This document shows positions 109 to 3,004 of a DNA stretch of 5,280 bases, one piece after another. Position 1 is the stretch's first letter; each line of letters begins with the position of its first letter. Under the pieces are notes generated by a model. That model was not told the DNA's origin, did not search any database, and saw only the letters and a list, made by a program, of their open reading frames with translations. Made by a program: the position numbers and the translations under genes. Source of the stretch: a virus (taxonomy: Duplodnaviria; Heunggongvirae; Uroviricota; Caudoviricetes); IMG/VR virus record IMGVR_UViG_2778261453_000016. One strand, written 5' to 3'.

Positions 109-324
109 ATGAAATCAATGGATAAGTTAACAACAGGTATCGCCTATGGCACATCGGCTGGTAATGCTGGTTTCTGGGCATTGCAGTTACTCGATAAAGT
201 AACTCCGTCACAGTGGGCTGCAATCGGTGTGCTGGGTAGTCTGGTTTTTGGCCTGCTGACATATCTGACAAACCTTTATTTCAAGATTAAAGAAGACAGG
301 CGTAAGGTTGCGAGAAGAGAGTAA
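109..324 (+). CDS. Class II holin / pinholin (phage 21 S21-like), 71 aa, with dual-start motif
   Basis: Translation starts MKSMDK (Met1/Met4 dual start as in the S21 antiholin/holin pair). Two predicted TMDs: a Gly/Ala-rich TMD1 ([18 protein letters not shown]) and TMD2 ([23 protein letters not shown]), then a charged C-terminus ([13 protein letters not shown]). GAGG Shine-Dalgarno just upstream; stop TAA at 322-324. It is the first gene of the lysis cassette. Confidence 0.85.
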
Positions 325-328
325 TCCA

Positions 329-880
329 ATGACTCAAGACTATGAACTGGTTGTGAAAGGAGTTCGCAATTTTGAGAATAAAGTGGCGGTAACTGTAGCC
401 TTACGGGACAAAAAACACTTTGACGGTGAAATTTTTGACTTGGACATCTCGCTGGACCGTGTTGAAGGTGCCGCGCTGGAGTTTTATGAGGCAGCAGCCA
501 GAAGGAGCATCAGACAGGTCTTCCTGGATGTTGCTGCCGGGTTATGTGAAGGGGATGAGCAGTCGCCGGAAAAGCGCCCCATAATTTTAGAGGCGCAGAA
601 TGTGTGGATAACCTACAAAGGAAAGCTACCGGGAAGAATTACTGGTTCTCTGAAGACGCCACCGACGGCATTGCGGTCAGAAAAAGATGATATTGAATCG
701 CCCATTGAAAAACTGGAGGGCAGCGTCGCTGATCTGAATAAAAAATTGTCGGTGCTGATTCCTTCTGAAGATGAAAAAAAACGCCGCGATGAGCAGTTTG
801 CGGCGTTTTACGATTATTGCATTGAAGTTACTCGCAGGAATTTTGTGAAGATTTTTGAGGAGGGTAAATCTCTTCAGTAA
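329..880 (+). CDS. Hypothetical protein, N-terminal region YdfR/DUF1327-like (recollection-level assignment), 183 aa from ATG 329
   Basis: ORF track gives 308-880 from a TTG; the first ATG is at 329, preceded by a purine-rich stretch (GAGAAGAGAG), 4 nt after the holin stop. The N-terminus (MTQDYELVVKGVRNFENKV...GAALEFYEAAARRS) resembles the small prophage protein YdfR that sits between holin and lysozyme in E. coli Qin, as I recall it. The C-terminal ~110 aa are charged and have no family I recognise. Confidence 0.6.
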   Translation: MTQDYELVVKGVRNFENKVAVTVALRDKKHFDGEIFDLDISLDRVEGAALEFYEAAARRSIRQVFLDVAAGLCEGDEQSPEKRPIILEAQNVWITYKGKLPGRITGSLKTPPTALRSEKDDIESPIEKLEGSVADLNKKLSVLIPSEDEKKRRDEQFAAFYDYCIEVTRRNFVKIFEEGKSLQ

Positions 881-1088
881 GCTTATTGGCGGACGCTGCA
901 ATTAATTCAGGAAGGTCCGCAAGGTCATCTGTCAGTGGATATGATGAAAAATCGGCGGCAGTTCTGTTAAGAAGCGCTTTAACTAATTCCTTTTCCTTCT
1001 CCGGCATCAAGTTGATTAGAGCTACGACTGCTTGCCTGAGTGCGATTAAATCAGCAAAAGTTTGTTTTGGTAGATTTGTGTAATCCAT
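828..1088 (-). CDS. Hypothetical small acidic protein (86 aa), convergent with and overlapping the 3' end of the 329-880 gene
   Basis: Minus-strand ORF with ATG at 1088-1086, preceded in the mRNA by AGAGGCGACU-AUG (GAGG, 5-nt spacer). The predicted protein is helical and acidic (MDYTNLPKQTFADLIALRQAVVALINLMPEKEKELVKALL...). It overlaps the upstream + gene by 53 nt. No recognisable family. Confidence 0.4.
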   Translation of the reverse strand: MDYTNLPKQTFADLIALRQAVVALINLMPEKEKELVKALLNRTAADFSSYPLTDDLADLPELIAASANKLTEEIYPPQKSSQNSCE

Positions 1089-1201
1089 AGTCGCCTCTGT
1101 GTTTATCAGATTGACATCCTCCTCCCGCCAGTGCCCATCACTGGTGAGGTAAGATTTAACATATCCGGGGATTTGAAGCCGATAAATCCTGATAAATATC
1201 C

Positions 1202-2229
<1,028 letters not shown>

Positions 2230-2412: not shown

Positions 2413-2441
2413 TTGCTATGGTTGGTTAATCATGCGTTAAT
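2413..2441 (+). promoter_or_regulatory. Candidate sigma70 promoter of the cold-shock gene (-35 TTGCTA, 17-bp spacer, -10 GTTAAT), with AT-rich upstream element
   Basis: Hexamers at 2413-2418 and 2436-2441. The layout resembles the cspA promoter (TTGCAT/CTTAAT as I recall it). It predicts a 5' UTR of about 140 nt, typical of CspA-family genes. A GGTTTGTTACAAA motif at 2448-2462 resembles the cspA cold box. Confidence 0.4.
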
Positions 2442-2589
2442 GGTGTTCTGGTTTGTTACAAAATTATCTGAAGCAGTCATTGTTATAATTTTATTATTTG
2501 TACCTCTTGAGATTTCCTTGTTGGTTTTTCTCTCTGATATTTTTTTTCGGACCATTCTGCCCAAGGGCTAACTTCTTCAAAAGGTAATA

Positions 2590-2805
2590 ATGATGTCTAA
2601 CAAAATGACTGGTTTAGTGAAATGGTTTAACCCTGAAAAAGGTTTTGGTTTCATCACGCCGAAAGATGGTAGCAAAGATGTGTTTGTCCATTTCTCAGCT
2701 ATTCAGAGCAACGATTTCAAAACGTTAACTGAGAATCAGGAAGTCGAATTTGGTATTGAGAACGGACCTAAAGGCCCCGCGGCTGTTCATGTTGTGGCAC
2801 TTTGA
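2590..2805 (+). CDS. cspI: CspA-family cold-shock protein (CspI/CspB-like), 70-71 aa
   Basis: Translation [41 protein letters not shown]... carries the RNP1 (KGFGFI) and RNP2 (VFVHF) motifs of the cold-shock domain. AAGG Shine-Dalgarno at 2581-2584. The true start may be the second ATG at 2593 (MSNKMTG). Paralog assignment (cspI versus cspB) is from memory and from synteny with the Qin prophage, and is not certain. Confidence 0.9.
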
Positions 2806-3004
2806 GGTAGAAAATATTACAAACCATATTCACTTTAGATGCCCGTGTTGCCATGGTTCTCAGTATAGAACATCATCTTTTGATGTTTCTGACAGGAATC
2901 CTTTCGGGGCAAAATGTATCTTTTGTAAATCAATGATGATTACATTTGATAATATTTCACAATACTTAAATGTTAGCCGTCTGTCGTTAGATTTAAGAAA
3001 GTGA
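2789..3004 (+). CDS. Hypothetical Cys-rich small protein (possible zinc-ribbon, C-x-C-C...C-x2-C), start uncertain
   Basis: ORF 2750-3004 (TTG start); the first ATG at 2789 overlaps the last 17 nt of the csp gene. It contains [12 protein letters not shown]...GAKCIFCKS. Its stop lies 6 nt before a strong intrinsic terminator. No clear Shine-Dalgarno, so translation would need coupling to csp. It may be non-coding 3' UTR. Confidence 0.3.

What the first reader, a model, noticed from the sequence alone, without database searches (positions are those of the whole stretch)
329..1088. Two uncharacterised genes wedged inside the lysis cassette between pinholin and endolysin
A 183-aa ORF (YdfR/DUF1327-like N-terminus plus a charged ~110-aa extension I cannot place) and a convergent, overlapping minus-strand 86-aa ORF with a good Shine-Dalgarno split the holin from the endolysin. 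Canonical S-R-Rz cassettes are contiguous. Genes here are well placed to modulate lysis timing or act as morons expressed from the late transcript, and a convergent overlapping pair suggests antisense regulation.
Basis: partly seen in the sequence, partly recalled or inferred. Interest (0 to 1): 0.55.

Follow-up and report, generated by a model that had tools for sequence, protein, structure and literature searches.

The report
Convergent accessory gene pair in prophage lysis cassette
Between the holin and endolysin genes of this E. coli lambdoid prophage sit a common YdfR-family late gene that has been fused to a small coiled-coil gene, and a real, separately transcribed opposite-strand gene for an 86-residue helical protein; the coiled-coil gene and the opposite-strand gene travel together as a mobile accessory cassette of unknown biochemical function.

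Summary
Both ORFs exist as described (329-880 +, 183 aa; 828-1088 -, 86 aa; 53-nt convergent overlap; AGAGG Shine-Dalgarno). The window is a Qin-like lambdoid prophage late region of E. coli. A ydfR/DUF1327 gene between S and R is normal for this cassette type (DNA in 4348 of 5426 complete E. coli genomes). What is special is a ~505-bp, low-GC cassette (677-1181), present in 296 of 5426 genomes. It contains the last 67 codons of the plus ORF, which are a separate 65-73-aa coiled-coil gene ('C') in other E. coli and Salmonella prophages. It also contains the minus-strand gene ('m86'). m86 is a real gene: remote homologues at 40-48% identity, dN/dS 0.17-0.45 where dS is about 0.85 or more, and 84 of 85 loci intact. 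It has its own terminator hairpin plus U8 (809-774), which lies inside the C coding sequence and is kept in three diverged lineages. C and m86 always occur as a convergent pair overlapping by 53-59 nt, either after the holin or after Rz. No function can be assigned by sequence or fold. Best reading: a moron-like two-gene accessory cassette, with m86 expressed against late transcription. A role in lysis timing is untested. Modest novelty.

The parts
109..324 (+). Class II pinholin (essQ-like, 71 aa; Met1/Met4 dual-start motif)
   Evidence: PF04971 E 7e-34; annotated essQ in a 99.9% identical genome
329..664 (+). DUF1327 (YdfR) part of the 183-aa hybrid late gene, residues 1-112
   Evidence: PF07041 E 2.6e-42. 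Shared with the short 116-aa form of PhiR40_1 up to residue 112. AF2 gives three strands plus a long helix for residues 1-73 (pLDDT 62-80) and disorder for 74-122
677..880 (+). Module C: last 67 codons of the hybrid gene, a predicted helical hairpin or coiled coil. It is a free-standing 65-73-aa gene in other prophages
   Evidence: Free-standing homologues P0069 (67 aa, E. coli, directly after the holin) and P0156/P0161 (73 aa, Salmonella, start overlapping the Rz stop). Fused to several different N-termini
828..1088 (-). m86: gene for an 86-aa acidic three-helix protein (PHROG 2572, no Pfam)
   Evidence: annotated WP_001557934.1 by PGAP
828..880 (.). 53-nt convergent coding overlap of module C and m86
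   Evidence: The overlap is 59 nt in the two diverged lineages
774..809 (-). Intrinsic terminator of m86: stem 809-800/787-778, 12-nt loop, then U8. It starts 18 nt after the m86 stop and encodes KRRDEQFAAF on the plus strand
1094..1098 (-). Shine-Dalgarno AGAGG of m86
1158..1186 (-). Candidate weak sigma-70 promoter of m86 (-35 TTTATC 1186-1181, 17-nt spacer, -10 TATGTT 1163-1158); inferred only
   Evidence: My own scan. The same architecture lies at a similar distance from the start in the diverged lineages. It was not found by the stricter consensus scan
1128..1144 (.). Inverted repeat CCAGTG-N5-CACTGG in the predicted m86 5' UTR; kept in the E. coli alleles
   Evidence: function unknown
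677..1181 (.). Extent of the mobile cassette (module C + m86 + its upstream region); absent from the short ydfR forms
   Evidence: Alignments; GC 0.41-0.43 against 0.50-0.56 in the flanks
1202..1735 (+). SAR-type endolysin (rrrQ-like, 177 aa)
   Evidence: PF00959, annotation

Best explanation
The S-R interval holds two things. (1) A normal ydfR-family late gene (DUF1327; in K-12 the first 72 residues of this domain were reported to bind the catalytic half of RNase E). Here recombination has joined it in frame to a separate small coiled-coil late gene, C. (2) A ~505-bp low-GC accessory cassette of the moron type, made of C plus a convergent, independently transcribed gene, m86, for an 86-aa cytoplasmic three-helix protein. 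m86 has its own ribosome-binding site, a probable weak promoter in the spacer before the endolysin gene, and a Rho-independent terminator that sits inside the coding sequence of C. Shown: both genes are real, they are inherited together, and the hairpin is conserved. Inferred: m86 is made from the prophage, against the direction of late transcription. It is then shut down when Q-modified polymerase reads through it, by transcriptional interference and a roughly 380-nt sense-antisense duplex. C (here YdfR-C) is made only late. The biochemical activities of C and m86 are unknown. Because m86 never occurs without C but C occurs without m86, m86 most likely acts on or with C, as regulator or antagonist, rather than on lysis itself.
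For: Identity of the locus: 99.8-99.9% identical to E. coli CFSAN004176 and to the viable phage PhiR63_1. Cassette boundaries come from comparison with the short forms. The same cassette is joined to different DUF1327 alleles and to a non-DUF1327 N-terminus. It follows a different holin family in Salmonella. C is free-standing directly after the holin in STEC prophages and after Rz, before terS, in Salmonella prophages. m86 homologues are present in every locus that carries the C tail. m86 is coding: remote homologues P0042 and P0043 were found by exhaustive HMMER (E 1e-13 and 3e-11). dN/dS is 0.17-0.45 where dS is 0.84-1.6. Replacements are conservative in the minus frame but radical in the plus frame that shares its third positions. 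Indels are in frame. 84 of 85 full-length loci are intact. The AF2 model has three helices, pLDDT 73.8. Terminator: dG -17 kcal/mol, z -2.8 on the m86 strand, followed by U8. The 8-bp core is unbroken in all 8 sequences from three lineages, with one compensatory GC-to-AU change. One G.U wobble pairs only in the m86-sense RNA. Composition differs from the flanks. RNase E binding by K-12 YdfR residues 1-72: PMC13232886.
Against: There are no expression data, and the promoter is only a weak consensus match (3/6 and 4/6) that the stricter scan missed. The U-tract after the hairpin is poor in the Salmonella and L020 lineages. The hairpin covariation is not significant against shuffles. The hairpin also persists in Stx-phage variants that lack m86, so the KRRDE..AA peptide may be selected for its own sake. 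Within E. coli the m86 alleles give dN/dS of 0.3-1.3 on very few changes. One sub-lineage has lost the m86 start codon. In both genera C lies next to, and closely spaced with, lysis genes, which fits a lysis-related role as well as it fits a moron site.
Confidence: 0.55

Rival explanations
1. Lysis-cassette regulators: YdfR-C and/or m86 tune holin triggering or the endolysin supply, and the m86 antisense RNA controls the late S-ydfR-R mRNA.
For: C always lies next to, and closely spaced with, a lysis gene. It starts 4 nt after the S stop here and in STEC, and its start overlaps the Rz stop in Salmonella. The predicted m86 RNA is complementary to the untranslated 321-nt gap just upstream of the poorly ribosome-bound endolysin start.
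Against: Most cassettes of this type work without it: K-12 Qin, PhiR40_1 and 95% of genomes. The cassette occupies two different junctions, S|R and Rz|terS, so there is no constant mRNA target. Neither protein has a membrane segment or resembles a known antiholin, spanin or releasin.
Confidence: 0.2
2. Effector-antidote pair (toxin-antitoxin-like or exclusion-type): C is harmful or active when made, and lysogen-expressed m86 neutralises it at the protein or RNA level. The 3'-overlapping convergent layout recalls prophage type I TA loci of Bacillus (my own knowledge, not tested here).
For: There is strict one-way dependence: m86 is never found without the C tail, whereas C occurs without m86. 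The 53-59-nt 3' overlap has survived saturating divergence. The lineage that lost the m86 start codon also carries a 7-aa deletion in C.
Against: C is hydrophilic and has no match in PADLOC or any toxin family. C variants without m86 are common in Stx phages. The physical overlap alone explains the co-inheritance. The 7-aa deletion is one heptad and may be neutral.
Confidence: 0.12
3. m86 is a small anti-defence inhibitor protein (Acr-like).
For: It is a small acidic helical protein. AcrIIC4 is the only Foldseek PDB hit (E 4.1) and also appears in the sequence-profile search of the PDB (E 0.14, 62 aligned residues).
Confidence: 0.05
4. The minus-strand ORF is a chance open frame opposite non-coding or plus-strand-coding DNA.
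For: The plus-strand ORF 886-1083 shares third codon positions with it, so third-position bias alone does not discriminate. Some genomes leave it unannotated.
Against: See the coding evidence above: remote homologues kept at the protein level, low dN/dS, conservative changes only in the minus frame, an ATG with SD, its own terminator, and 84 of 85 loci intact.
Confidence: 0.04

Closest known systems
YdfR (b1555) of the K-12 Qin prophage / Pfam DUF1327
   Same: Same position directly after the class II holin. The N-terminal domain is about 90% identical over residues 1-68. This is the part reported to bind the RNase E catalytic half (PMC13232886).
   Different: K-12 YdfR is 103 aa and its stop overlaps the rrrQ start. 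Here the domain continues into a linker and the 67-aa module C, and a 321-nt gap holding m86 separates it from the endolysin gene.
Lambdoid morons such as lambda bor (own knowledge)
   Same: A small gene in the late region near the lysis genes, on the strand opposite to late transcription. It has its own expression signals and a base composition different from its neighbours.
   Different: bor encodes a lipoprotein and does not overlap a late gene. m86 has no signal peptide, overlaps a late gene by 53 nt and places its terminator inside that gene. No phenotype is known.
Lambda OOP RNA / cII convergent overlap (own knowledge)
   Same: A convergent transcript whose 3' end overlaps the 3' end of a protein-coding gene and ends at a hairpin inside it.
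   Different: OOP is a non-coding 77-nt RNA in the early region. m86 is a protein-coding mRNA, and no RNase III-dependent regulation has been shown.
PHROG 2572 (m86) and PHROG 2091/1085/36381 (YdfR-C variants)
   Same: Full-length matches: E 1e-52 for m86 and 8e-112 for the 183-aa protein.
   Different: These families carry no functional annotation, and the pairing of the two has not been described in anything I could find.

Membership tests
YdfR family / DUF1327 | Match to PF07041 above the gathering score | tested here: met
   143.4 bits against a cut-off of 25; residues 1-112, profile 1-92/93
YdfR family / DUF1327 | Position directly downstream of the holin in a lambdoid lysis cassette | tested here: met
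YdfR family / DUF1327 | Binding to the RNase E N-terminal domain (reported for K-12 YdfR only) | not testable with these tools
   PMC13232886; inferred from about 90% identity over residues 1-68
Moron (autonomous accessory transcription unit in a phage late region) | Present or absent between otherwise collinear phage genomes | tested here: met
   Short forms lack 677-1181; present in 296 of 5426 genomes
Moron (autonomous accessory transcription unit in a phage late region) | Own terminator | tested here: met
   Hairpin plus U8, 18 nt after the stop codon. Weaker U-tract in the other lineages
Moron (autonomous accessory transcription unit in a phage late region) | Own promoter, expression from the prophage | tested here: inconclusive
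   Only a weak candidate, though conserved in position; none in the strict scan; no expression data
Moron (autonomous accessory transcription unit in a phage late region) | Base composition different from the neighbours | tested here: met
   GC 0.41-0.43 against 0.50-0.56
Anti-CRISPR AcrIIC4 | Significant sequence or fold similarity | tested here: not met
   Foldseek E 4.1, hmmsearch E 0.14, hhalign probability 8%
Known anti-phage defence or toxin-antitoxin proteins | Match to a PADLOC, Pfam or NCBIfam model | tested here: not met
   No hits for either protein

The most novel reading that the evidence does not exclude
C and m86 form a previously undescribed two-component switch. The lysogen-phase gene (m86) and the late gene (C) are locked together by a 3' overlap, and the m86 terminator hairpin dictates the most conserved peptide of C (KRRDE..AA). 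Late transcription then silences m86 while producing C. m86 protein or RNA keeps C, and the RNase E-binding YdfR domain fused to it, inactive in the lysogen.
Probability: 0.15. Interest if true: 0.6.

Novelty: new member of a known kind. Interest (0 to 1): 0.38.

Why it matters
The gene slot after the holin in phage-21/Qin-type lysis cassettes is present in most E. coli genomes and is highly mosaic, yet it has no assigned function. This analysis shows that one common variant is a fusion of an RNase E-binding domain to a separate small gene. It also shows that this small gene is always paired with a convergent, self-terminating gene. That gives concrete constructs to test: deletion of 677-1181, an m86 start-codon mutant, and C with or without m86. 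The locus is also a clean case in which an RNA hairpin appears to constrain a protein sequence on the opposite strand. Practically, it corrects two annotation habits: calling the 183-aa gene a truncated pseudogene, and leaving the 86-aa gene unannotated.

Full report
What the window is. The 5.3-kb window is the late-region start of a Qin-like lambdoid prophage of E. coli. In order it carries:
- pinholin 109-324
- YdfR-family gene 329-880
- minus-strand ORF 828-1088
- SAR lysozyme 1202-1735
- Rz 1732-2229, with an embedded Rz1
- cspI, ynfQ, ynfN, gnsB, a YbcW-like gene and a YlcI/YnfO-family gene
- the start of nu1
The window is 99.8-99.9% identical over 100-1300 to E. coli CFSAN004176 and to the propagated phage PhiR63_1, and 98.8% identical to CFT073, APEC O1, S88 and phage 2H10.

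Observation. They converge and overlap by 53 nt, and the minus ORF has AGAGG 5 nt before its ATG. Pfam DUF1327 covers residues 1-112 of the plus protein, so the unplaced tail is 71 aa.

A ydfR gene between S and R is ordinary. K-12 Qin has essQ-ydfR-rrrQ, with the ydfR stop overlapping the rrrQ start. DNA for the DUF1327 part is found in 4348 of 5426 complete E. coli genomes, up to 10 copies per genome. Many deposited phages annotate a YdfR-family gene between S and R.

The unusual part is a cassette. Short forms lack window positions ~666-1180 (K-12, 103 aa; PhiR40_1, 116 aa). The differing segment has GC 0.41-0.43 against 0.50-0.56 in the flanks. At 80% coverage or more it occurs in 296 of 5426 genomes. 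It is joined to different DUF1327 alleles in PhiR12_1 (169 aa) and PhiR5_1 (211 aa).

The tail of the plus ORF is a separate gene elsewhere. A profile of the last 67 residues finds free-standing genes of 65-73 aa. In STEC prophages the 67-aa gene follows the holin directly, with no DUF1327. In Salmonella prophages a 73-aa homologue (29% identity; shared motif E.KRRDE..AA.Y...RN..K..K..Q) starts on the Rz stop codon and precedes terS. The same module is fused to K-12-type YdfR (P0131, 174 aa) and to a non-DUF1327 N-terminus (P0090). In Stx phages it is fused to extra C-terminal domains, giving proteins of 213-329 aa. I call it module C. AF2 predicts a helical hairpin for it at low confidence, and a moderately confident three-strand-plus-helix domain for residues 1-73.

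The PGAP label 'YdfR pseudogene, missing C-terminus' is therefore an annotation artefact. The whole DUF1327 profile is present, and the 183-aa ORF is intact in a protein cluster with 681 member sequences.

The minus-strand ORF is a gene.
- Close relatives are confined to Escherichia, with three allele groups. Their indels are in frame.
- An exhaustive HMMER search of 1.84 billion representatives added P0042 (93 aa, 48% identity) and P0043 (89 aa, 40% identity).
- Between lineages dN/dS is 0.17-0.45 where dS is 0.84-1.6.
- Within E. coli the substitutions fall 4/3/10 by codon position. The replacements are conservative in the minus frame and radical in the plus frame that shares its third positions.
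- 84 of 85 full-length loci keep the ORF.
- One sub-lineage has ATG changed to ACG, together with a 7-aa deletion in C.
- AF2 gives three helices (8-27, 30-48, 56-74) at pLDDT 73.8.

C and m86 travel together. Every locus with the C tail has an m86 homologue converging on it, overlapping by 53 nt (E. coli and one Salmonella type) or 59 nt (the two diverged lineages). This holds at the S|R junction, behind a different holin family, and at Rz|terS. C variants with other tails lack m86, and one locus keeps only the last 37 codons of m86.

Expression signals of m86.
- Terminator. Eighteen nt after the stop codon lies AAAACGCCGC-N12-GCGGCGUUUU followed by four more U (809-774). It has dG -17 kcal/mol and z -2.8. 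On the plus strand it encodes KRRDEQFAAF, the most conserved peptide of C.
- Hairpin conservation. The 8-bp core is unbroken in 8 sequences from three lineages, while the loop and flanks differ. L020 has a compensatory GC-to-AU change accompanied by amino-acid changes (RR to HH, AA to GV). The STEC allele has a G.U wobble that pairs only in the m86-sense RNA. With so few sequences the shuffle controls are not significant. The U-tract is weaker outside E. coli.
- Promoter. A candidate (TTTATC-17-TATGTT, 1186-1158) is weak but recurs at a similar distance from the start in the other lineages. The strict scan found none.

Function. I found no informative match in any library or fold search. The weak AcrIIC4 resemblance failed hhalign. 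The only experimental lead is for the DUF1327 part: K-12 YdfR residues 1-72 bind the RNase E N-terminal half in two-hybrid and pull-down assays, and the preparation carries RNA (PMC13232886).

Verdict. The best-supported reading is a moron-like, mobile two-gene cassette. Its late-strand member has been fused to ydfR here, and its opposite-strand member is an autonomous gene whose terminator lies inside its partner. Roles in lysis timing, antisense control or effector-antidote pairing remain open. All of them can be tested directly with a few phage constructs.

Noticed in passing
window 2435-2851: Full-length match to the Rfam cspA thermoregulator (RF01766, 109.8 bits, E 3e-28), covering the 5' UTR and coding region of the prophage cold-shock gene cspI (2590-2805).
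   Followed up: no
window 1925-2179 (+): Embedded Rz1/rzoQ-type lipoprotein frame inside rzpQ ([23 protein letters not shown]...). Its position matches K-12 rzoQ relative to rzpQ.
   Followed up: partly
L006:2103-2417 (-) (Stx2a phage Stx2_12E129): A different minus-strand gene (104 aa, PHROG 1853, unknown function) occupies the same slot between a module-C-containing late gene and the endolysin. The S-R interval therefore looks like a recurrent site for opposite-strand accessory genes.
   Followed up: partly
window 1181-1201 and L105:3873-3891: The motif ATATTTATCAGG(A/C)(T/C)TTATC lies directly upstream of the endolysin start in E. coli, including cassette-free forms. It also lies upstream of the m86 homologue in Salmonella, where no endolysin is adjacent. 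It may be a recombination joint or part of the m86 promoter.
   Followed up: partly
L016, L085-L091 (E. coli/Shigella lineage with 176-aa YdfR-C): Loss of the m86 start codon (ATG to ACG) co-occurs with a 21-bp in-frame deletion (one heptad, GSVADLN) in module C.
   Followed up: partly
L114:559-1259: In the Salmonella prophage carrying the cassette, a ParE-toxin gene and an HTH gene sit between Q and the holin. This is another accessory insertion in the late leader region.
   Followed up: no
window 109-120: The holin starts MKSM, the Met1/Met4 dual-start motif. Some gene callers choose the 68-aa form (L012, L013).
   Followed up: no
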